NCBI GenBank assembly: GCA_033813415.1
Contig: JAPXRV010000002.1
Location: 23,432 to 87,431, forward strand
DNA length: 64,000 bases
Direction of reading: 5' to 3'
Source: Opitutales bacterium
GTDB taxonomy: Bacteria > Verrucomicrobiota > Verrucomicrobiia > Opitutales > JAFGAQ01
Made by a program: the position numbers and the translations under genes. The notes under the pieces were generated by a model. That model worked only from the letters and a program-made list of their open reading frames with translations. It made no database searches and had not been told where the DNA came from. Positions 2,675 to 64,000 of the stretch are shown here, in pieces (position 1 is the first letter of the stretch; the number at the start of each line of letters is the position of its first letter).

Positions 2675-5302
2675 ATGAATATCCTGATTGATAGAACGTG
2701 GGTGCTCTCCTTGGTGGGGGCACTCGTATTATCTGGTTTGGCGGGTCCTGCTCAAGGGCTAGCCAGCAGCGAGCCGGACGGTAGTGGACCCGTCGAGGAA
2801 CTGGAGGCTTTCAGCATGCGTGAAAGTCAGCGATTCCGTCAAGGCGGGCTGGACCCATCGTCGCGGCCTGTTTCGTCGGTTTTTTCCGGGGATTGGGACG
2901 CGATGGACATCCCTCGATCGGTCACTGTTGTGACATCCGAGCACATGAAGCTTCTGGGGATTGAGGACCTTCGGGGAGTATCTCAGATCGGTGCGGGAAC
3001 TCAGCTGATCAATCACTATGGGGTGACGGGTTCTCCGATTCTGCGTGGGGTAAAGGGTGCAACGCTTTTGAATGGCATGGTGCGTGGTTTCAATCTGAAT
3101 GAGATGCCGCTCTCGCTCGGATCTTGTGAGGCGATGGACATTGTGAAGGGGCCGACTCCTCCACACATCACTCCGACCCACGTTGGTGGGTTCATCAATT
3201 TGCTGCCCAAAAGCCCGCACTTTGATTTGGCCCGGGGTTCGGTGGAGGTGAGCATGGGCAGTTTTGAGCACTACCGCCTGACGGTGGACTATGGCGCACC
3301 GTGGATGTGGGGACGCTGTCCTTCCGCTTGGCGTTTCTCTCACACCCAAAACCGGAGTGGGGGCTACTATGATCGGGTGGGGAACGACTACGAATCGCTG
3401 TATCTGAGCCTCAAGACTCAAATCCGCGAAGGCCTCACGGTCTTTGGAGGAGTGGAAGGGTTTCGCTATCGCAGCAATGAGAATGCCGGGTGGAACCGTC
3501 CAACTCAGGATCTGATCGATCGCGGGCTTTACATCATCGGGGAGCCTGTGAATGTGTCGGATCCTGGCTTCGGAGGGACGGCGAATCGTGATCTGGTTTC
3601 ATTCCCGTGGGGCTTTGGTTTCAAGAATGGAATCGAGGATTTCAATGCCTTGGTTGTTTCGCGCGACGTGGTCGATGCGGCTGTTAATGGCGGGCTTATC
3701 CCAGCATCTGCACGGGATGCCATGTTGGATCTCGCGGATCCGGATGATCGCGCACGGGCCTATGGTCAGGTGTTGCCCTCGACCGGTGAGTACGACCCGA
3801 AGTATCGTGCAAAAGGCCCGGTCGCGGATGTATTGGCCGGGCTCTCGACCAACGATAACAGCGGAGGCTACCGCTACACCCGGGATTACTTTGATCTGGG
3901 TGGGGTGGTTTTCACCAAAGCGATCGAAGGGAATCAGGTGCTTTCAGATTCGGATGACAAGTCGGAGGCTGAAAACTGGGTTGGTTTCCTGAATGTGCGG
4001 TTTGAGGATGGACTGTTGGAGTCGTGGGAGAGCAAGATGCTGGTGGACGTGGTGGATACTGAGAAGCTCTCGTCATATGGCTATGCCATTGAGACCAGTC
4101 AACGGGTTTTCGCGCACAACATTGAACGCAACCGGCCTCTGGATTTCGGGCTGAAAACTGATTTGTCGTATGGTATCGGGTGGCGGGCCACGAAGGCGGA
4201 AATGATTCAGGACTATTATGCTGAGCCATTTTCGCGCCGGGACATTTCCCGTAAGGCAATCAGCCGGAATAGTGTGGTAATCGCTGGCCCGCAGGAAGGG
4301 CCGGATGGACTCAATTACTGGTCGCCCGATATCGGAGCAAACGTGGCCTCGATGTTGTGGCAGGGGGCGGTATTCGGCCAATTGAGCAGTCGCTTGACTG
4401 AGTCGTTTACGGCGACGGTATCGATGCGGGCTGAAAGGGCGTGGTACGATCTGGAAATGCCGGACGAGGTCGAACGAGCCTCGGCAGAAGTCCGTGATTC
4501 ATTGGATAAAAGTGGCGACAAAGATATTTACAGCATCGCCGCGTATGGCTCCTGGGCCTTTCTGGAAGACTGGAGACTGTATGCTGCCGTGCAGGATGGA
4601 GTGGCCGTTGACCTGACACAAGGGGGAGGTGTTATGGGGGAAGAGAATTTCGCCCAGGCCCGTCTTGCGGAGATCGGCATCAAGAACAGCCTTATGGACG
4701 GTCGTTTTCAAGGCGCTCTTTCCGGCTGGGCGTGGGAACAAAGCCGGTACAATGACCGGGATGCCCAATCCGAGCCTTTGGAAGGAAAAGGGGTCGAGTT
4801 CGAGATGACGGCGACCCTGGTGCCCGGGAAGCTTTTCCTGATTGGATCCACCGAATACCAGAAGGTGCGCAGGAAGATTGGATTGGGCTACCGTGCCTTG
4901 CCTTTGACTCAAGAGGAATGGGCTTTGAATGGGGGCGTACTGAATGGAGGCGTAGATCCATTTCCTGAGGGAAATCCGAAGCTGTGTTATCCCGGGTTTC
5001 CTGAGAACACAGTGAAAGCGCATTTGGTTTGGAAACCGCTGCCGATGTGGAATGCCGCGCTCAGTATTGTATACAGTCAGGCCTATTGGCTAAACTTTGA
5101 ACGGACGCTTAGACTACCGTCCTCGTGCATTGTGAATGCCCGGATCGGCTGGCAAGCGAAGCAATGGGAGTGCGCGCTGCAGGTGGAAAATCTCACCGAT
5201 GAGGATCATTATCTTGGCGCGGATCCGCTGTTCTCCTCGAATACGCTTGTGACCAAAGGGGAGCCGATCCGCTATTCCGTAAAGGTTCGCTACGCTTTCT
5301 AG
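2675..5302 (+). CDS. TonB-dependent outer-membrane receptor
   Basis: 875 aa with a signal peptide. A plug-like segment is present (SVTVVTSEHMKLLGIEDLRGVSQ...ILRGVKGATLLNGM...EAMDIVKGPT). A long beta-barrel-like body follows, and the C-terminus ...YSVKVRYAF ends in an aromatic residue as in OM barrels. Confidence 0.7.
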   Translation: MNILIDRTWVLSLVGALVLSGLAGPAQGLASSEPDGSGPVEELEAFSMRESQRFRQGGLDPSSRPVSSVFSGDWDAMDIPRSVTVVTSEHMKLLGIEDLRGVSQIGAGTQLINHYGVTGSPILRGVKGATLLNGMVRGFNLNEMPLSLGSCEAMDIVKGPTPPHITPTHVGGFINLLPKSPHFDLARGSVEVSMGSFEHYRLTVDYGAPWMWGRCPSAWRFSHTQNRSGGYYDRVGNDYESLYLSLKTQIREGLTVFGGVEGFRYRSNENAGWNRPTQDLIDRGLYIIGEPVNVSDPGFGGTANRDLVSFPWGFGFKNGIEDFNALVVSRDVVDAAVNGGLIPASARDAMLDLADPDDRARAYGQVLPSTGEYDPKYRAKGPVADVLAGLSTNDNSGGYRYTRDYFDLGGVVFTKAIEGNQVLSDSDDKSEAENWVGFLNVRFEDGLLESWESKMLVDVVDTEKLSSYGYAIETSQRVFAHNIERNRPLDFGLKTDLSYGIGWRATKAEMIQDYYAEPFSRRDISRKAISRNSVVIAGPQEGPDGLNYWSPDIGANVASMLWQGAVFGQLSSRLTESFTATVSMRAERAWYDLEMPDEVERASAEVRDSLDKSGDKDIYSIAAYGSWAFLEDWRLYAAVQDGVAVDLTQGGGVMGEENFAQARLAEIGIKNSLMDGRFQGALSGWAWEQSRYNDRDAQSEPLEGKGVEFEMTATLVPGKLFLIGSTEYQKVRRKIGLGYRALPLTQEEWALNGGVLNGGVDPFPEGNPKLCYPGFPENTVKAHLVWKPLPMWNAALSIVYSQAYWLNFERTLRLPSSCIVNARIGWQAKQWECALQVENLTDEDHYLGADPLFSSNTLVTKGEPIRYSVKVRYAF

Positions 5303-56192: not shown

Positions 56193-57800
56193 ATGACAGA
56201 GACAACGGGAGCAAATCTGGGTTTTGAGGACAAGCTGTGGAACGCGGCGGACAAGATGCGGGGCACGATGGATGCGGCCGAGTATAAACATGTCGTCCTT
56301 GGACTGATCTTCCTAAAATACATCTCGGATGCTTTTCAGGAGCGCTACGACCAGTTGAAGGCAGAGGCTTTTGCCGACCCCGAAGATCGCGACGAATACA
56401 TGGCCCTCAATGTCTTCTGGGTTCCGCCTGAGGCCCGTTGGCTCTATCTCCAGAGCCGCGCTAAAGACCCGAAGATTGGCCAGCTCCTGGACGAGGGAAT
56501 GACCGCCATCGAGCGTGACAACCCTCCGCTAAAGGGTGTGCTTCCCAAAGACTACGCCCGGCCTTCTCTCGACAAAGCGCGGCTTGGGCAACTCATCGAT
56601 TTAATCGCTACGATTGGCTTGGGAGACGAGCAGAGCCGTCAGCGTGACGTCCTCGGGCGCGTTTACGAGTACTTTCTTGCCAGGTTTGCCGAAAAGGAAG
56701 GCAAACTTGGCGGTGAGTTCTATACTCCGCAGTGCGTGGTCCAGCTGCTCGTGGAGATGCTGGAGCCCTACAAGGGCCGCGTCTTTGACCCCTGCTGTGG
56801 CTCGGGTGGCATGTTTGTGCAAGCGGTGCGCTTCGTGAAGGCCCACGCCACCGGCAATGGCAACGGCGCAGCCGCCCTGAGGCAGATTTCCATCTATGGG
56901 CAAGAGTCGAACTATACAACTTGGCGGCTGGCCATCATGAATCTGGCCATTCGGGGCATTGATGCTGATATCCGTTGGGGCGACTCTTTCCTTCAGAATA
57001 AGCATCCCGACCTTCGGGCCGACTACATCATCGCCAACCCGCCTTTCAATATGGAGGATTGGGGTTTTTCCAAGGTGAAGGATGACGTGCGCTGGGCTTA
57101 CGGCACTCCTCCCGGAGGCGGGCAACGGAAGCAGAAGGATGGCTCCGTTGTTTCGGTGGACGGCGGCAACGCCAACTACGCCTGGATTCAGCATTTCATT
57201 CACCATCTGGCTTCAGACGGCCTTGCGGGCTTTGTTCTTGCCAACGGCTCCATGTCCACCCAGACGGGCGGAGAGGGAGAGATCCGCAAAGCCCTGATCG
57301 AAGCTGACATGGTGGACTGCATGATCGCGCTGCCCGGCCAGCTCTTCTACACCACGCAGATTCCCGTCTGCCTGTGGTTCCTCACGCGATCGAAGCGTCC
57401 GGACAACAAGCGGGGCTTCCGGGGGCGCGTTGGAGAGACCCTTTTTATCGATGCCCGCAAGCTTGGCACCCTTATAGATCGCACTCACCGTGAGCTGTCT
57501 GCTGCTGAAATCGTGGAAGTCGCCCGTACCTACCATGCCTGGCGCGGCGAAGCTAAGGATGGTGCTTACGAGGATAAGCCCGGCTTCTGCCAGTCGGCGA
57601 CCCTCGAGGATATCCGCAAGCACCATCATGTGCTGACACCTGGCCGGTATGTGGGCTCCGAAGCGATCGAAGACGATGGCATTCCCTTTGAGGAAAAGAT
57701 GGCCGAACTCGCCGACCGCCTGCAGCAGCAGATGCGGGAATCCATCGAACTCGATGCCACCATCCGCAAGAATCTGGAGGTTTTGGGCTATGGAGAGTGA
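56193..57800 (+). CDS. hsdM: Type I restriction-modification system, DNA methyltransferase subunit
   Basis: 535 aa with an HsdM_N-like N-terminus. Motifs: [17 protein letters not shown] motif [11 protein letters not shown], and catalytic IANPPFNM (NPPF at 57036-57047). Confidence 0.9.
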
Positions 57801-59079
57801 GTGGACAAAGAGCACTTGGGGTGACGAGGTTTCCTTGGAATACGGCAAGGGCATTCGCGGGTATCAAACTGCCAAGGGTCGGTATCGCGTGTTTGGCGCT
57901 AACGGTCCAGTCGGTTGGACAAGCAAACCACTTGTGCAGGGTTCAGGGGTGATTTTAGGTAGGAAGGGAGCATATCGAGGGGTTGAGTATTCGAAGGAAC
58001 CGTTCTTCGTCATCGATACAGCGTATTACGTGCAGCCCAAGAAGCCTCTCGATATGAGGTGGCTTTATTACGCCATAAAGTACTATAGGCTTGGGGAAAT
58101 AGACGATGGCTCGCCAATTCCATCTACGACAAGGGCTGCTGTCTATGTTCGCGATTTGAGCGTTCCCCCGCTTCCCGAGCAGAAGGCTATTGCGCACGTG
58201 CTCGGGTCGTTGGATGACAAGATAGAAGCGAACCGGCAGATGAACTCCACGCTGGAGGCGATGGCGCAGGCGCTCTTCAAGAGCTGGTTCGTGGACTTCG
58301 ACCCCGTGATCGACAACGCCCTCGCCGCAGGCAACCCCATTCCCGACGAACTCCAGGCCCGCGCCGCAGCCCGTGAATCCCTCGGCGACGCCCGCAAACC
58401 CCTCCCCGAACACCTCCAGAACCTCTTCCCCGCCTCCTTCACCCAAACCGAAGAACTCGGCTGGATTCCGGAGGGGTGGGCGGTAGGCCGCATTCGTGAC
58501 TGTTGTGAAAAGATTCAGAATGGCGGAACCCCAAAACGAAACATCAAGGATTATTGGCAGCCGCTCCAAGTGCCCTGGTTGACTTCCGGCGAGGTAAGAC
58601 GCGGTTTCATTACCAGAACTGAAACTTTCATTTCTGAGCTTGGACTGCAAAAAAGTGCGGCAAAATGGGTTCCTGAAGATGCGACCGTAGTCGCCCTTTA
58701 CGGAGCGACTGCCGGTCAGGTTGCTTTCTGCGCCTCAAGGCTTACTACTAACCAAGCAGTATGTGCCTTGATCAGCAAAGAGAACTATCGCTTCTTTAGT
58801 TACATTTTTCTGTCTCGATCTATTGGTTCCTTAGCCAATCAGGCAAGAGGTTCAGCTCAGCAGAACATAAGTAAGGGCATTGTTGAGGAACTCCCAGTGA
58901 TCCTCCCAAATACATCTGTCGTTCAAACCTTTGACAAACTACTTGAACCAGTCTTCGCCAAGTGGAAGCTGAACGAATCGTATAGCTCCGACCTCGCCAA
59001 GACCCGTGACACACTGCTGCCCAAACTCCTCTCCGGCGAACTCCGCCTGCCAATCGAAGAATTGGAGGTGGCGGTATGA
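57790..59079 (+). CDS. hsdS: Type I restriction-modification system, specificity subunit
   Basis: The ATG at 57790 ([14 protein letters not shown]) overlaps the hsdM stop by 11 nt. Two variable TRD-like halves are separated by conserved helices: [46 protein letters not shown] and the C-terminal [16 protein letters not shown]. Confidence 0.85.
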
Positions 59080-61001
59080 GCAGGGAAACGACGCTGTCCA
59101 GCTTGGCCATGCTGAAGGTGCGTGTGGACCAAGGGGGCGATTATCTGGAGTATCTCAGGCCTTTCATCCTCCATGTCCTGCCGAAGCTTCAGAATGGCGT
59201 CGTCACGGATGAAAGCGTCTCATTGGCCCTGCTCAACGAGTTCGGGCTCTCGATACCTCGCAGAACAACCCAGATCGTTCTCAAGCGGCTAACGAAGAAG
59301 GCCGGGCCTCTCCGCAAGGACAACAACACTTACGTCCTGGAAAAAGACATCTCGTCGGGCGATCTTGCCACTCGCCGGGCTGACGCATCCCGGCGCATCT
59401 CAGCAGTCGCCCATGCTCTGATTCGATTTGCAAAGGAGTTCCACGACAAAGACCTATCGGAAGACAGCGCTTTTGAGGCCCTGACTCTCTTCCTTTCAAG
59501 GTTTTCCGTCAGCTGCATTCGCTCCTACCTTCGCGGAACAGCTCTGCCCAACAATCTCACCGCGAAGGATGGAGATCTTCTGTTGGTCTGCCAATTTGTG
59601 AAACAGATCCAGTCGATATGTCCCGAACGTTTCGAGGATTTCATCCTTCTCGTTCAAGGGCACATGCTCGCCAATGCTCTGCTCTGTCCTGACCTCAAGT
59701 CTGTTTCCAAGACCTATGCAGGTGTTTCGTTTTTCCTCGATACGCCTCTGCTACTTCAGGTTTTGGGGCTTGAAGGCGAAACGAAGGAACAATCTGTAAA
59801 GGAGTTGATTCGATTGCTTCAAAGCCTAAGTGGAACGGTTGGATATTTCATTCACACTTTCGATGAGTTGAGGAGTGTCATCCGGAAAACCTCAGATTAC
59901 ATCGACTCTACAGATGGACGCGGATCAATCGTTTACGAAGCCAGACGTTTAGGCAAATCCAGGTCAGACCTACTACTGGAGGCAGATAATGCCAAGGAAA
60001 GTCTGGATAGGCTGAAGCTCGTACCACATAACACCCCGCCTTACATTGCGAAATTCCAAATCGATGAAAGCGCGTTCGGGGATGAATTAGATGATTCAGT
60101 TTCGTACAACAATCCGAATGCTCGCCAGAATGATATAAACTCTGTGCGCAGTATCTACGTGCTTAGGCAAGGGACGATTCCACATTCCATCGAGTCTTCG
60201 AAGGCCATCTTTGTCACCAGCAACACCGGTTTCGCGAGAGCAGCTTTTGAATACGGAAGAAACTTCGAACAAACGCGGGAGGTCTCCGCTGTAATCTCTG
60301 ATTTCAGCTTGGCAAATACCGCTTGGCTAAAGGCTCCTCAGGGCGCACCGTCTCTTCCGAGAAAGGAGGTTCTGGCTTATTCATACGCAGCTCTTCGCCC
60401 CAGCGAGGAGTTTCTCAGGAAGACGCTTGTCGAAGCCGAAAAGCTCGAAAGGGAAGGCAAGATCTCTGAGCGATCCCACCAGATGCTCCGAAGCAATCAC
60501 ATCATCCAAGAAGATCTGCTGTCTCATACTCTTGGAGAGGAAGATGCGCTCACGGAGCGGTCAATCACTGCAGTTTTAGAAAAAGCTGAGGCGGAGATAA
60601 AAAAGGAGGAGTCGGCGAAACTCCGACAAGAGAAGGCGGCTCGCACACGAGCTGAAACAGATCTGCAGGAAGAAAGAACAAAAAGAGAGGAAATATCTCG
60701 TCGAATCTATTGGGATTGCGATACGCAAGCAAAGAGGTGGTCAGATATTGGGGCCGGAACATTGGTCTTTTTCGTCTTGGCGGGTGCCGTTTGCGGATTA
60801 CTCAAGCTTCCTGATAACCTGTTGGCGGGAGTGGTTATTCTTTCTGTCCCTCTGGTCTTTGCTGTTCTGACCGTTTGTAACCTCATCTGGGGAACCACAG
60901 TAAAGCAGTTGAGGGACAATGCCCAAGTGAATCTTAGGCAAAGATTTCTTAAGAGGGAGTCGCAGAGGCTGGGAATTGAATTTGAGAATCTTGCAGAATA
61001 A
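59076..61001 (+). CDS. unknown 641-aa protein: winged-helix-like N-terminus, PIN-like central region, coiled coil, C-terminal two-TM hairpin (defence-locus cargo)
   Basis: ATGA overlap with the hsdS stop (59076-59079). wHTH-like stretch: GLSIPRRTTQIVLKRLTKKAGPLRKDNNTYVL. PIN-like landmarks: FFLDTPLLLQVLG, HTFDELRSVI, QNDINSV, IFVTSNTGF. Hydrophobic helices at aa 558-578 and 582-606 (nt 60747-60893). I do not recognise the family. Confidence 0.7.
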   Translation: MSRETTLSSLAMLKVRVDQGGDYLEYLRPFILHVLPKLQNGVVTDESVSLALLNEFGLSIPRRTTQIVLKRLTKKAGPLRKDNNTYVLEKDISSGDLATRRADASRRISAVAHALIRFAKEFHDKDLSEDSAFEALTLFLSRFSVSCIRSYLRGTALPNNLTAKDGDLLLVCQFVKQIQSICPERFEDFILLVQGHMLANALLCPDLKSVSKTYAGVSFFLDTPLLLQVLGLEGETKEQSVKELIRLLQSLSGTVGYFIHTFDELRSVIRKTSDYIDSTDGRGSIVYEARRLGKSRSDLLLEADNAKESLDRLKLVPHNTPPYIAKFQIDESAFGDELDDSVSYNNPNARQNDINSVRSIYVLRQGTIPHSIESSKAIFVTSNTGFARAAFEYGRNFEQTREVSAVISDFSLANTAWLKAPQGAPSLPRKEVLAYSYAALRPSEEFLRKTLVEAEKLEREGKISERSHQMLRSNHIIQEDLLSHTLGEEDALTERSITAVLEKAEAEIKKEESAKLRQEKAARTRAETDLQEERTKREEISRRIYWDCDTQAKRWSDIGAGTLVFFVLAGAVCGLLKLPDNLLAGVVILSVPLVFAVLTVCNLIWGTTVKQLRDNAQVNLRQRFLKRESQRLGIEFENLAE

Positions 61002-61798
61002 TGAACCTCTCCTGCACTAAAACTGAGTATGAGGACAACCACGCCTGCGTGTCGTGGCGTGGTCACTCGTTCTCGGTAGGCAGTGAGTTCGACGGATTTC
61101 TGAAGGGAAGCGTTCGCTCGCGACTGGACGATGAGGAGGGTTCGGACGATTTCCGCAGCCATGTGAGAGGATTGGAACTGACTGGGATGGGGAAGACCAC
61201 ACTGGAGGCGGTGCTGGCAGCCGAAGCCCCCGAGGAACGGGATTGGGCCGCTGGCGAGGCTTTGGCCGAAGCATTCTTGATGGAGACCCATGGGATCGCC
61301 TTCCCCTGGAACATGGAGCGCGATAAGCGCAATCCGTTTGGATCCCTGCCGGGTGCTGATCTAGTAGGCTTCCTCTCCGAAGGCGATGGCTACCGGCTGG
61401 CGCTTGGCGAGGTCAAAACATCCTCCGAGGAAGCCTATCCGCCGCAGGTCATGTCGGGCAGGTCGGGACACATGGGTCATCAGATTGACACGCTCGGGAG
61501 TGACTTGACGACCCTATGCCAGCTTCTCAAATGGTTGCACCCGCGCACTAAAGGTGGGCAGTTTGAGGATGCGTTTGACAGGTCCTGTGTTGCATACTTC
61601 AATTCGGGCCGAAAGGCGATAGCGCTTTTTGGCGTGCTCATCCGTGACACGCAACCGAACGCTCGGGACCTCTCCGCCAGGGGATCAGCCTTGCGGAATC
61701 GGCTCGCTGCGCCGACGCAGTGCGACCTCATCGCCCTTTACCTTCCCTGGAAATCGGACCAACTAATCCCCGCGATCCGGCAAGGAGGTGACGCATGA
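61001..61798 (+). CDS. PD-(D/E)xK-type nuclease-like protein, HamA/DUF1837-like candidate
   Basis: 265 aa. The start shares base 61001 with the upstream stop (TAATG). The core reads PGAD120LVGFLSEGDGYRLALGE137VK139TSS, a D...ExK arrangement. It is ATGA-coupled to the downstream helicase. Confidence 0.6.
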   Translation: MNLSCTKTEYEDNHACVSWRGHSFSVGSEFDGFLKGSVRSRLDDEEGSDDFRSHVRGLELTGMGKTTLEAVLAAEAPEERDWAAGEALAEAFLMETHGIAFPWNMERDKRNPFGSLPGADLVGFLSEGDGYRLALGEVKTSSEEAYPPQVMSGRSGHMGHQIDTLGSDLTTLCQLLKWLHPRTKGGQFEDAFDRSCVAYFNSGRKAIALFGVLIRDTQPNARDLSARGSALRNRLAAPTQCDLIALYLPWKSDQLIPAIRQGGDA

Positions 61799-64000
61799 GC
61801 CACTGGTTGCTGGATGGAATCGCGGAGCGCCGCCGCGCGGCCTTGAAGGCTGCGGACAAGGCGCAGGTTTACCGTGAGCTGCTGTCTACCGAGGCGGAGA
61901 CAGACTATGATCTGATCCGGAATGTCGCCGACGCGTTGGAGCTGGCCTCGCTCGACCTCATCTTGGAACGCTTTGAAGAGGACGAGGAGAAAGAGAAGCT
62001 TTTCCGCGCCGCTGCGCGTGATGCTTTCCGCCTTTCCAAGAGTCTGCCAGCGGCGGATATCCCCCTCCAAGAAGGCATGGCGCTGCTGCGGGCATCCTGT
62101 CTGGCAGTGCTCGGGGATCGGGGCTCTGATGCCGCTCGTTGGCTTCGCGCCTTGGAAGACTCCGGGACCTGGCCAGAACTGCCCTTTGAATCGGAAAACT
62201 GGGGCGAGCGAACCTGGGCGACCATCATCGACGTGTGGCTTCGTTTGATTCGGAAACGGGGTTGGACTGACCGTGACCTGGTGCTGCAACGCATCGCGAG
62301 TTTGCGCGAAAGCCAGAGTGAATTCGAGAAGACCTACCTGGACGGCATCCCGGCCCAATCCGCAAAAGCGACGGCCCTTGAACTTATCGGGCTCTACCAT
62401 TTGGCCAAAGCGGCGGATATTCTTGCGCACTTCATCACGGATGGAGTCGTGGAAGGGAACCATCAGGTGCAGCAGCTCCTCGACACCCATTTCGACCGGG
62501 CATTGGCGGCTTGCGAACCAGCCCGCTTGATTGAGCTGGAGCCCATGACGCGTCTATTGGCGGCTGCCTCGGCGCAACTGGTCAACAATTCGATCTGGAC
62601 GGTGACCCGGGCGGTGAACTCACGAGTGACTCAGTTTGTGCGGACGCTCGTATCTCGTGGACGTGGGGACAAAGCGATCTTCGATGTTCTACCGCCGCAA
62701 CGCCGAACTCTCGCTGAAAAGGGACTCTTGGGCTCAAGCCGCCGTGCAGTGGTGGTCAGTTTGCCAACATCTAGCGGCAAGACGCTGATTGCGCAGTTCC
62801 GCATTTTGCAGGCACTGAATCAGTTTGATGACCCGGGCAGTGAAGGCTGGGTCGCTTACCTCGCTCCCACCCGGGCATTGGTCAATCAGGTGACGAGGCA
62901 ATTGCGCAGGGACTTTAAGCCATTGGGCATCGTGGTCGAGCGGGTGAGCCCCGCACTCGAAGTTGATGGCGTGGAAATGGAATTGCTGACAGAAACAGAA
63001 ACGGACTCCAAGTTTCGCGTTCTGGTGACCACTCCGGAGAAACTCGATCTCATGCTCCGGCAAGGATGGGAGAGCAAGATTGGCAGGCCGCTGACGCTGG
63101 TTATTGTCGACGAAGCCCATAATTTGGCCAGTTCGCGCCGAGGCCTGAAACTCGAACTACTCCTCGCCAACATCAACAAGGAGTGCGAATACGCGCAGTT
63201 TCTCCTGCTCACGCCTTTTGTTTCCAATGCGCGTGAAGTAGCCAGATGGCTTGGCGGACAGAATTCTGACGACATTAGCCTCGCCCTCGATTGGCAGCCC
63301 AATGACCGTACAATCGGAATCGTGCAAGCAGTTCAGGGTGACCCGCTGAATGGGCGCAGCTATGACTATTCTTTGGAGTTCGAAAGTGTCCACACGACCC
63401 GGAAGACCATTGCCCTCGATGATCGGGTTCCTTTCCCGAAGACCGAGGAAATAGCACCGACTTTTTCCAAGGCAAAGAATCAAGGCACAATAGCAGCGGT
63501 CGCGGCACAGTATCTGAAACAGCGTGGCCCCGTCATTCTCATGCACGCGAGGCCGGATTGGGTTTGGTCCTTGGCAGACCAGCTCAAGATCGTCTCGAAT
63601 CGGAAAATTGCTGTTCACGCAGACATTGCTTTTGTGCAGCGATATCTGGCGCTCGAATTGGGAGAAGCATTTCCCCTCATCGAGTTATTGTCGTTTGGCA
63701 TCGGAATCCATCATTCGGGATTGCCCGAGGAGGTTAGGGTTTTGGTCGAGTGGTTATTCGAGTCCTCGCACCTCGACTTTCTGGTTGCTACGACGACCAT
63801 CGCTCAAGGTATCAATTTTCCCGTCAGTGGTGTAGTGATGGCATCCCACCAGTATTTCAGCGCGAGGGGCGCAGAAGACATGCCACCGGAAGACTTCTGG
63901 AATATCGCGGGTAGAGCAGGGAGAATATCTCAGGGCCAACTCGGAATAGTCGCTTTGGCCGCCGACAGTCACGAAAAGGCCAGTGCTTTGCGGACCTACA
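61795..64000 (+). CDS. Ski2/Hel308-like DExH-box SF2 helicase with ~320-aa N-terminal extension (partial, runs off window end); HamB-like candidate
   Basis: Own translation: ATG at 61795, open for 735 codons to 64000. It is not in the track because no stop is reached. Motifs: PTSSGKT (62764-62784), TTPEK, VIVDEAH (DEAH 63109-63120), LLLTPF, IGIHHSGL, VATTTIAQGINFP, NIAGRAGR (63907-63924). Confidence 0.85.
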   Translation, partial: MSHWLLDGIAERRRAALKAADKAQVYRELLSTEAETDYDLIRNVADALELASLDLILERFEEDEEKEKLFRAAARDAFRLSKSLPAADIPLQEGMALLRASCLAVLGDRGSDAARWLRALEDSGTWPELPFESENWGERTWATIIDVWLRLIRKRGWTDRDLVLQRIASLRESQSEFEKTYLDGIPAQSAKATALELIGLYHLAKAADILAHFITDGVVEGNHQVQQLLDTHFDRALAACEPARLIELEPMTRLLAAASAQLVNNSIWTVTRAVNSRVTQFVRTLVSRGRGDKAIFDVLPPQRRTLAEKGLLGSSRRAVVVSLPTSSGKTLIAQFRILQALNQFDDPGSEGWVAYLAPTRALVNQVTRQLRRDFKPLGIVVERVSPALEVDGVEMELLTETETDSKFRVLVTTPEKLDLMLRQGWESKIGRPLTLVIVDEAHNLASSRRGLKLELLLANINKECEYAQFLLLTPFVSNAREVARWLGGQNSDDISLALDWQPNDRTIGIVQAVQGDPLNGRSYDYSLEFESVHTTRKTIALDDRVPFPKTEEIAPTFSKAKNQGTIAAVAAQYLKQRGPVILMHARPDWVWSLADQLKIVSNRKIAVHADIAFVQRYLALELGEAFPLIELLSFGIGIHHSGLPEEVRVLVEWLFESSHLDFLVATTTIAQGINFPVSGVVMASHQYFSARGAEDMPPEDFWNIAGRAGRISQGQLGIVALAADSHEKASALRTY

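What the first reader, a model, noticed from the sequence alone, without database searches (positions are those of the whole stretch)
61001..61798. Stand-alone PD-(D/E)xK nuclease-like protein (D120 / E137-x-K139) coupled to the helicase: HamA-like?
Seen: the catalytic-type arrangement is directly readable as ...SLPGAD120LVGFLSEGDGYRLALGE137VK139TSS. The D codon is at 61358-61360, E at 61409-61411 and K at 61415-61417. This is a strand ending in D, then about 17 aa later a hydrophobic strand followed by ExK. The N-terminal ~110 aa are acidic and carry no motif I recognise.
Established: the restriction-endonuclease-like fold uses D...(D/E)xK. Hachiman HamA (DUF1837) is a protein of roughly this size with that fold, encoded directly upstream of the Ski2-like helicase HamB.
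Inference: this is a HamA-like effector. The alternative is a Shedu- or Cap4-like nuclease that has been recruited independently.
Basis: partly seen in the sequence, partly recalled or inferred. Interest (0 to 1): 0.6.

Follow-up and report, generated by a model that had tools for sequence, protein, structure and literature searches.

The report
Divergent Hachiman nuclease inside restriction operon
This 265-residue protein is a highly diverged relative of HamA, the DNA-cutting half of the Hachiman anti-phage system; it sits directly before its partner helicase inside a type I restriction-modification operon, and the pair is already catalogued as the untested defence candidate PDC-M23.

Summary
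ORF 61001-61798 (+, 265 aa) exists as written, D120/E137/K139 are at the stated codons, and its stop overlaps the start of a Ski2-like helicase. The D...ExK string alone is not evidence, because 61% of shuffles of this protein contain one. Conservation is the evidence: K139 is invariant and D120 and E137 are at least 90% conserved across 66 diverse relatives.

Single-sequence HMM scans do not call it HamA. Other evidence does:
- Profile-profile comparison with nine bona fide HamA proteins gives 95-97% probability. D120, E137 and K139 fall on ECOR31 HamA D119, E138 and K140. Shuffled controls stay at or below 1.6%.
- The only significant Foldseek hit in the viral library is a HamA-domain protein.
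- UniProt already names two relatives as HamA-domain proteins.

PADLOC files the pair full-length as PDC-M23A/B. The helicase follows the nuclease gene in 80 of 80 related genomic loci. A 99.94% identical contig shows the full operon: hsdM, hsdS, a 641-aa gene, A, B (1061 aa), hsdR.

Verdict: a divergent, catalytically intact Hachiman-type nuclease-helicase pair embedded in a type I RM operon. Function is inferred by homology and is untested. Interest is modest.

The parts
61001..61798 (+). Gene for the 265-aa HamA-like PD-(D/E)xK nuclease (PADLOC PDC-M23A). The ATG overlaps the TAA of the upstream gene (TAATG), and the stop overlaps the helicase ATG (ATGA).
   Evidence: The ORF is shown. PADLOC PDC-M23A matches at 6e-97 over the full length. 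hhalign against HamA gives 95-97% probability. The AF2 model has pLDDT 88.3. The top Foldseek BFVD hit is a HamA-domain protein.
61256..61270 (+). Codons E86-E90 (GEALAE helix). E86 is invariant and aligns with E84 of the ECOR31 HamA motif G-D-x-x-E. The Asp of that motif corresponds to A83 here.
   Evidence: The alignment is and the conservation. The motif residues are essential in S. thermophilus HamA (PMC13064477).
61358..61360 (+). Codon D120, the putative metal-binding Asp, which aligns with ECOR31 HamA D119.
   Evidence: Read directly, aligned, and at least 90% conserved.
61409..61417 (+). Codons E137-V138-K139, the ExK motif, which aligns with ECOR31 HamA E138-A-K140.
   Evidence: Aligned. 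K139 is invariant and E137 at least 90% conserved. The HamA E138A/K140A mutant loses defence (PMC12278908).
61795..64000 (+). HamB-like Ski2-type SF2 helicase (PADLOC PDC-M23B). The window holds the first 735 of 1061 aa. Walker A TSSGKT is at 62767-62784, DEAH at 63109-63120, and motif VI AGRAGR at 63907-63924.
   Evidence: Pfam finds DEAD, ResIII and Helicase_C. PADLOC gives PDC-M23B at 2e-301 and HamB1 at 3e-63. PDB HamB 8vx9_B matches at 6e-24. The full length comes from the 99.94% identical contig L098.
56193..57800 (+). Context: hsdM, the type I RM methyltransferase and first gene of the operon that hosts the pair.
   Evidence: ORF. Its homolog in L001 is 82% identical. Pfam finds HsdM_N and N6_Mtase on equivalent genes.
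57790..59079 (+). Context: hsdS, the specificity subunit. The start is approximate and taken from the 429-aa call on L098.
   Evidence: ORF. Methylase_S is found on the L098 gene.
59076..61001 (+). Context, not part of the conserved module: a 641-aa uncharacterised protein with a C-terminal coiled coil and two hydrophobic segments. It is translationally coupled to hsdS and to the nuclease gene.
   Evidence: It has no Pfam, PADLOC or NCBIfam hit. It is absent from 80 of 80 other loci that carry the A-B pair. Its homologs occur independently in other RM or defence contexts.

Best explanation
The 265-aa protein is a highly diverged, catalytically intact member of the HamA (DUF1837) branch of PD-(D/E)xK nucleases. 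Together with the 1061-aa Ski2-like helicase encoded immediately downstream, it forms a Hachiman-type nuclease-helicase anti-phage module. This module is the one PADLOC lists as the untested candidate PDC-M23.

By analogy with characterised HamAB, the inferred mechanism is as follows. The helicase holds the nuclease in a 1:1 complex and keeps it quiet on intact DNA. When phage infection or DNA damage exposes ssDNA ends, these enter the helicase, and ATP hydrolysis activates or releases the nuclease. The nuclease then degrades DNA indiscriminately through the E86/D120/E137/K139 metal site, giving abortive infection.

In this genome the pair is inserted between hsdS and hsdR of a type I RM operon and is co-transcribed and translationally coupled with it.

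Shown here: homology, conservation of the catalytic residues, obligate gene pairing, and embedding in the RM operon. Inferred only: complex formation, DNase activity, the trigger, and defence itself.
For: Profile-level homology
- hhalign of 66 diverse family members against 9 Pfam- or PADLOC-confirmed HamA proteins gives probability 95.4-97.1% and E 2e-8 to 1e-10 over 156-243 columns.
- D120, E137, K139 and E86 fall on ECOR31 HamA D119, E138, K140 and E84.
- Reversed and 20 column-shuffled controls score 10.6-21.3 (probability at most 1.6%), against 62-65 for the real alignment.
- BLASTP of the window protein against ECOR31 HamA gives E 3e-4.

Bridging sequences
- 13 of 66 family members hit Pfam HamA, best 2.4e-5.
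- Member P0252 hits PADLOC HamA1 at 4e-6 while scoring 243 bits on PDC-M23A.
- Kitasatospora and Streptomyces HamA proteins match both profiles.

Structure
- The AF2 model (pLDDT 88.3, pTM 0.87) has the order helix(81-97), loop, hairpin(121-127/130-141), helices, strand, helix, strand.
- It has a helix-loop-helix at 28-56, a long loop at 98-120, and helices at 158-201. HamA contacts HamB through residues 30-63, 102-117 and 159-199 (PMC12278908).
- The only BFVD Foldseek hit with E<=1e-3 is a HamA C-terminal domain protein (E 8.6e-5, probability 1.00).

The helicase partner
- It matches PDC-M23B over its full length and more than 20 HamB models, and PDB HamB 8vx9_B.
- Its ATPase motifs are intact.

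Gene pairing
- The helicase gene follows directly on the same strand in 80 of 80 loci.
- Identities of A and B to the window proteins correlate at r=0.88 across loci.

Other
- UniProt names the relatives A0A0E3L7P9 and WP_053814612 'Anti-bacteriophage protein A/HamA C-terminal domain-containing protein'.
- 14 of 46 loci with adequate flanks have type I RM genes on both sides, and the cassette was picked up by guilt-by-embedding.
Against: - The window protein has no hit to Pfam HamA or any PADLOC HamA model at E<=1, nor to PDB HamA by phmmer or hmmsearch.
- Foldseek against the PDB gave nothing at E<=1e-3, and 8vx9_A was not in the top 50. The best nuclease hits were FokI (E 0.16) and Nt.BspD6I.
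- The Asp of HamA motif I (G-D-x-x-E), which is essential in S. thermophilus HamA, corresponds to Ala here.
- The N-terminal ~230 aa of the helicase show no profile similarity to HamB N-termini. Only the last ~70 aa before the core do, at 64% probability.
- No experiment on PDC-M23 exists in the searched literature.
- Two other PADLOC PDC candidates tested elsewhere showed no activity (PMC12409345).
Confidence: 0.78

Rival explanations
1. The protein is a PD-(D/E)xK nuclease of another lineage (Shedu DUF4263, Cap4, Mrr or type II REase-like) that was recruited independently to a Ski2-like helicase. On this reading it is convergent with Hachiman rather than homologous to HamA.
For: Single-sequence HMMs fail to call HamA. 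The PDB Foldseek top nuclease hits are FokI and Nt.BspD6I rather than HamA. The motif-I Asp is missing.
Confidence: 0.06
2. The protein is a non-catalytic scaffold or regulator of the helicase, like the inactive DUF1837 domains of Hachiman types I-B to I-D. The effector would be something else, for example the neighbouring 641-aa membrane-anchored protein or HsdR.
For: Inactive DUF1837 domains exist and act as scaffolds (PMC11914072). One essential HamA residue, the motif-I Asp, is absent. A predicted membrane protein is translationally coupled just upstream.
Against: E86, D120, E137 and K139 are invariant or at least 90% conserved across the family, whereas inactive DUF1837 domains lack the (D/E)xK. 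No extra effector domain is fused. The 641-aa gene is absent from 80 of 80 other loci, and most loci have no RM genes nearby, so no alternative effector travels with the pair.
Confidence: 0.07
3. The pair is a functional accessory of the type I RM enzyme rather than an autonomous system. It could be a PrrC-like guard fired when the RM complex is inhibited, or a processor of DNA ends made by HsdR.
For: In this genome the pair lies between hsdS and hsdR, with overlapping stop and start codons throughout. 14 of 46 well-flanked loci are embedded in the same way. PrrC sets a precedent for RM-embedded guards (bioRxiv 10.1101/2024.01.29.577857).
Against: 27 of 46 well-flanked loci show no type I RM gene within 4-10 kb with the queries used. 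The flanking RM genes are very diverse (21-82% identity) and their gene order varies. Characterised Hachiman systems work alone (PMC12278908). Embedding is common for many autonomous systems.
Confidence: 0.08

Closest known systems
Hachiman type I-A / type III-A (HamA of DUF1837 only, plus HamB), e.g. E. coli ECOR31 HamAB (PDB 8VX9) and E. coli DEC14B
   Same: Both are two-gene operons with a nuclease of about 260 aa directly upstream of a Ski2-like SF2 helicase of about 1000-1200 aa. Profile-level homology covers most of the nuclease. The D...ExK residues align (D120/E137/K139 with D119/E138/K140), as does the helix Glu (E86 with E84). The secondary-structure order is the same, including elements at the positions of the HamB-contacting segments. 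Walker A lies at nearly the same position in the helicase (residue 325, against 264-331 in nine HamB proteins).
   Different: The window protein is below detection for Pfam PF08878 and every PADLOC HamA model. Identity to ECOR31 HamA is about 15% over the hhalign-aligned region (25% in the 96-aa BLASTP segment). The motif-I Asp is replaced by Ala. The family has its own invariant motifs (PWNxxRDxRNP loop, PPxV...G, Q161, R215-D216, D223). The helicase forms a separate, tightly conserved clade (PDC-M23B at 1001 bits against the best HamB model at 212 bits), and its first ~230 aa show no detectable similarity to HamB N-termini. The pair is often embedded in type I RM operons.
PADLOC phage defence candidate PDC-M23 (cassette CAS_00096, FAM_02460>>FAM_00699; Payne et al., bioRxiv 10.1101/2024.01.29.577857)
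   Same: This locus is an instance of it. Both proteins match the PDC-M23A and PDC-M23B HMMs end to end. It is embedded in a type I RM system, which is how the candidate was discovered.
   Different: PDC-M23 is listed as an untested candidate separate from Hachiman, and I found no text linking the two. This locus additionally carries an unrelated 641-aa gene between hsdS and the A gene.
AbpAB / Hachiman type I-B (E. coli K-12)
   Same: It also pairs a DUF1837-containing protein with a Ski2-like helicase and responds to DNA damage.
   Different: In AbpA the DUF1837 domain is catalytically dead and an N-terminal Cap4-type nuclease is the effector. The protein here is a single domain with the (D/E)xK motif intact.
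PrrC / EcoprrI (a defence gene embedded in a type I RM locus)
   Same: It is embedded within a type I RM operon.
   Different: PrrC is an anticodon nuclease that is physically regulated by the RM enzyme. There is no sequence or fold relationship, and the pair here is found without RM genes in most loci.

Membership tests
HamA / DUF1837 (Pfam PF08878) | The protein matches the Pfam HamA model at or above its gathering score (25 bits). | tested here: not met
   The window protein has no hit at E<=1. Among close homologs, 1 of 37 hits (E 0.085). Among diverse relatives, 13 of 66 hit, best E 2.4e-5.
HamA / DUF1837 | The protein matches PADLOC HamA1 or HamA2 models. | tested here: not met
   The window protein hits only PDC-M23A. 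Family member P0252 hits HamA1 at 4e-6.
HamA / DUF1837 | The protein shows profile-profile homology to bona fide HamA proteins. | tested here: met
   hhalign gives probability 95.4-97.1% and E 2e-8 to 1e-10 over 156-243 columns. Shuffled and reversed controls give at most 1.6%.
HamA / DUF1837 | The catalytic D...E-x-K is conserved and in register with HamA (ECOR31 D119, E138, K140). | tested here: met
   D120, E137 and K139 align with D119, E138 and K140. K139 is invariant, and D120 and E137 are at least 90% conserved in 66 relatives.
HamA / DUF1837 | Motif I, G-D-x-x-E, is present in the preceding helix. Both D and E are essential in S. thermophilus HamA. | tested here: not met
   E86 aligns with E84 and is invariant, but the Asp position is A83 here. 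The family motif is W-x-x-G-E.
HamA / DUF1837 | The fold is like HamA: a PD-(D/E)xK core with HamB-binding insertions. | tested here: inconclusive
Hachiman system | The nuclease gene lies immediately upstream of, and is co-oriented with, a HamB (Ski2-like SF2) helicase gene. | tested here: met
   The two genes overlap by ATGA in the window. The arrangement holds in 80 of 80 related loci. The helicase hits more than 20 HamB models down to 3e-63, and PDB HamB at 6e-24.
Hachiman system | The helicase has the HamB N-terminal alpha-helical (NAH) domain that binds HamA. | tested here: inconclusive
   An N-terminal extension of the same length is present (Walker A at residue 325, against 264-331 in nine HamB proteins). 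hhalign finds only the last ~70 aa similar, at 64% probability. One HamB model aligns from residue 175.
Hachiman system | A and B form a complex, the complex has ATP- and DNA-end-activated DNase activity, and it protects against phage. | not testable with these tools
   This needs biochemistry and plaque assays. No published test of PDC-M23 was found.
PADLOC PDC-M23 | Both proteins match the PDC-M23A and PDC-M23B HMMs and the genes are adjacent. | tested here: met
   PDC-M23A matches at 6e-97 (residues 1-260 of 265). PDC-M23B matches at 1385 bits over residues 2-1059 of the full-length protein from L098.
Shedu (DUF4263) / Cap4-type nucleases | The protein matches the family HMMs. | tested here: not met
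   Pfam and PADLOC give no hit at E<=1 for the window protein. Neither family is among the 25 recurrent families listed for the 66 relatives; every family other than HamA hit at most 2 members.

The most novel reading that the evidence does not exclude
The PDC-M23 pair may not be just another autonomous Hachiman. It could be functionally wired to the type I RM enzyme whose operon it occupies. One possibility is that it loads on the DNA ends or stalled translocation loops made by HsdR and so turns limited restriction into complete DNA clearance. Another is that it acts as a PrrC-like guard that fires when a phage anti-restriction protein disables the RM complex. The 641-aa membrane-anchored protein in this operon could then be a further layer.
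Probability: 0.1. Interest if true: 0.6.

Novelty: new variant of a known kind. Interest (0 to 1): 0.3.

Why it matters
The finding links an untested PADLOC candidate, PDC-M23 (161 RefSeq instances; 571 cluster representatives at 50% identity across many bacterial phyla and methanogenic archaea), to a mechanistically understood system, Hachiman. That gives immediate testable predictions: named catalytic residues, ATPase dependence, and a DNA-damage trigger. It also extends the known sequence space of HamA beyond what Pfam and PADLOC HamA models detect.

The divergence is informative in its own right. This clade dispenses with an Asp that is essential in S. thermophilus HamA, and its helicase N-terminus has diverged beyond recognition. 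It is therefore a natural comparison case for how HamB restrains and releases HamA.

It does not reveal a new kind of system.

Tried and rejected
- **Direct scans.** Direct Pfam, NCBIfam and PDB-sequence scans of the window protein returned nothing useful.
- **PDB Foldseek.** Foldseek against the PDB gave no significant hit.
- **Wasted structure job.** The model was unusable (pLDDT 42.6).
- **HamA homolog search.** The search seeded with Klebsiella HamA returned only relatives at or above 78% identity in the listed set. I instead built the HamA profile from nine diverse HamA proteins next to HamB homologs on annotated plasmids.
- **Plasmids and phages.** tblastn of the protein against the plasmid and phage collections found no match.
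- **641-aa gene as a third component.** I rejected this because the gene is absent from 80 of 80 other loci.
- **Literature.** A search for 'PDC-M23' found no paper.
Full report
**1. The observation**

ORF 61001..61798 on the + strand encodes 265 aa and contains the quoted string. D120, E137 and K139 are at 61358-61360, 61409-61411 and 61415-61417. The ATG overlaps the TAA of an upstream 641-aa ORF (TAATG). The TGA overlaps the ATG (61795) of a DEAD/DEAH-box helicase ORF that runs off the window end. The N-terminal 110 aa are acidic, with pI 4.73.

The motif alone is weak evidence. D-x(10-25)-[DE]-x-K appears in 61% of shuffles of this protein. Conservation is what counts. The family is large:
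- 2288 clusters at 90% identity.
- 571 representatives at 50% identity with E<=1e-3.

Among 66 representatives that are only 27-51% identical to the query, K139, E86, G118, G123, S141, Q161, R215 and D223 are invariant, and D120, E137, D108 and D216 are at least 90% conserved.

**2. Family searches**

Pfam, NCBIfam and PDB sequence searches find nothing for the window protein. PADLOC matches it end to end to PDC-M23A (6e-97). PADLOC matches the helicase to PDC-M23B (2e-301), followed by more than 20 HamB models down to 3e-63.

[quoted passage not shown] It is cassette CAS_00096, with 161 RefSeq instances. No paper in the library mentions PDC-M23 by name.

**3. Is it HamA?**

I collected nine bona fide HamA proteins. 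Eight were the genes upstream of HamB homologs on annotated plasmids. The ninth was ECOR31 HamA, read from the PDB alignment. Three of the nine were checked directly with Pfam (all hit PF08878) and two with PADLOC HamA models; the others are PGAP-annotated as HamA, apart from the Piscirickettsia protein, which is annotated 'virulence associated protein'.

Sequence evidence:
- BLASTP of the window protein against ECOR31 HamA gives E 3e-4 over residues 62-152 against 57-151.
- hhalign with the 37-sequence close alignment gives 91% probability.
- hhalign with the 66-sequence diverse alignment gives 95.4-95.8% (E 2e-8 to 8e-9, 156-175 columns) in local mode and 97.1% in global mode.
- The register puts D120, E137 and K139 on ECOR31 D119, E138 and K140. 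The E138A/K140A double mutant loses defence (PMC12278908).
- The register puts E86 on E84 of the HamA G-D-x-x-E motif. That motif's residues are essential in S. thermophilus HamA (PMC13064477).
- One reversed and twenty column-shuffled HamA templates scored 10.6-21.3 (at most 1.6% probability), against 62-65 for the real one.

Bridging sequences:
- 13 of 66 family members hit Pfam HamA weakly, best 2.4e-5.
- Member P0252 hits PADLOC HamA1 at 4e-6 and my HamA HMM at 31.7 bits.
- Two actinomycete HamA proteins match both profiles.
- UniProt already names two relatives, 61-64% identical to the query, as HamA C-terminal domain proteins, while NCBI calls them hypothetical.

**4. Structure**

The AF2 model built on 37 sequences is confident (pLDDT 88.3, pTM 0.87). 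Its order is:
- an N-terminal hairpin;
- a helix-loop-helix (28-56) and helix 62-73;
- helix 81-97, which carries E86 and E90;
- a long loop (98-120, partly low confidence);
- a hairpin (121-127 and 130-141) with D120 at its start and ExK in the second strand;
- three helices (158-201);
- strand 207-215, helix, strand 240-247, helix.

This is the alpha-beta-beta-beta-alpha-beta logic of PD-(D/E)xK enzymes. Elements sit at the positions of the three HamB-contacting segments of ECOR31 HamA, which are residues 30-63, 102-117 and 159-199.

**5. Context**

In 80 of 80 genomic loci encoding a relative, the helicase gene follows directly on the same strand. These loci span many bacterial phyla and methanogenic archaea. 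Identities of A and B to the window proteins correlate across loci (r=0.88). B is the better conserved of the two, at a mean of 66% against 56%.

A contig that is 99.94% identical to window 57444-64000 shows what lies beyond the window. The helicase is 1061 aa and is followed, with a TAATG overlap, by a 1059-aa HsdR. The operon is therefore hsdM, hsdS, p641, A, B, hsdR, and every junction from hsdS onward overlaps.

Of 46 related loci with at least 4 kb on both sides, 14 have type I RM genes on both sides and 27 have none detected. Embedding is frequent but not obligatory.

The 641-aa gene is absent from all 80 other loci. It has its own distribution in other RM or defence contexts, so it is not part of the module.

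**6. Mechanism (inferred)**

By homology with HamAB, the helicase binds and restrains the nuclease. ssDNA ends produced during infection or DNA damage trigger ATP hydrolysis. The nuclease is then activated and degrades DNA (PMC12278908; PMC11914072; PMC13064477).

What is shown here is homology, an intact catalytic set in A, intact Walker A (TSSGKT), DEAH and motif VI in B, and obligate pairing. Everything biochemical is inference.

**7. Differences from canonical Hachiman**

- The window protein is undetectable by HamA HMMs.
- The motif-I Asp is replaced by Ala.
- The family has its own invariant motifs.
- The helicase forms a separate clade, and its first ~230 aa are not recognisably like HamB N-termini.
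- The pair has a strong tendency to sit inside type I RM operons.

**8. Verdict**

This is a divergent Hachiman-type nuclease, already catalogued as an untested candidate and already auto-annotated as HamA-domain for some relatives. It is a new variant of a known kind and of modest interest. Its main value is that it assigns a concrete, testable mechanism to PDC-M23.

Noticed in passing
window 59076-61001 (+): A 641-aa protein has no Pfam, PADLOC or NCBIfam match. It has a lysine- and glutamate-rich coiled-coil stretch and two C-terminal hydrophobic (transmembrane-like) segments. It is wedged between hsdS and the nuclease gene with overlapping stop and start codons. It has about 1090 homologs of about 638 aa. 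One homolog (71% identical) sits between hsdS and hsdR of a different type I RM operon. Another lies next to a SIR2 protein, and another stands alone between nrd and polA. It looks like an independent, uncharacterised RM-embedded defence candidate.
   Followed up: partly
L098 7537-10716 (continuation of the window beyond 64000): A contig 99.94% identical to the window tail shows that the helicase is 1061 aa and is followed directly (TAATG overlap) by a 1059-aa HsdR. A TonB-dependent receptor gene comes next. The window therefore cuts a six-gene type I RM operon carrying three embedded genes.
   Followed up: yes
L082 2740-6712 (Rhizobium etli plasmid pRetMIM1e): A PDC-M23B-type helicase (591 bits) is paired with a different 284-aa upstream protein that hits neither HamA nor PDC-M23A HMMs. 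That protein aligns to the PDC-M23A family at 76% hhalign probability and has Q-V-K where ExK would be. The pair lies directly after a CBASS operon. It may be a further diverged or inactivated partner.
   Followed up: partly
L083 1429-5658 (Nostoc sp. UHCC 0926 plasmid pn3): A single 1409-aa ORF annotated as HamA has an N-terminal Pfam HamA domain and matches the window's helicase further downstream (match at locus 3001-4284). It appears to be a natural HamA-HamB fusion.
   Followed up: no
L009 9333-10190: In a Leptospirales MAG the A-B pair is embedded as hsdM, hsdS, A, B, then a 285-aa ORF with an IS200-like transposase fragment, then hsdR and a GmrSD-type enzyme. The transposase remnant hints at how cassettes enter RM operons.
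   Followed up: no
window 61795-64000 versus 61001-61798, across L001-L080: The helicase is consistently more conserved than its nuclease partner (mean 66% against 56% identity to the window proteins). This is the reverse of what one might expect for a sensor and an effector.
   Followed up: partly
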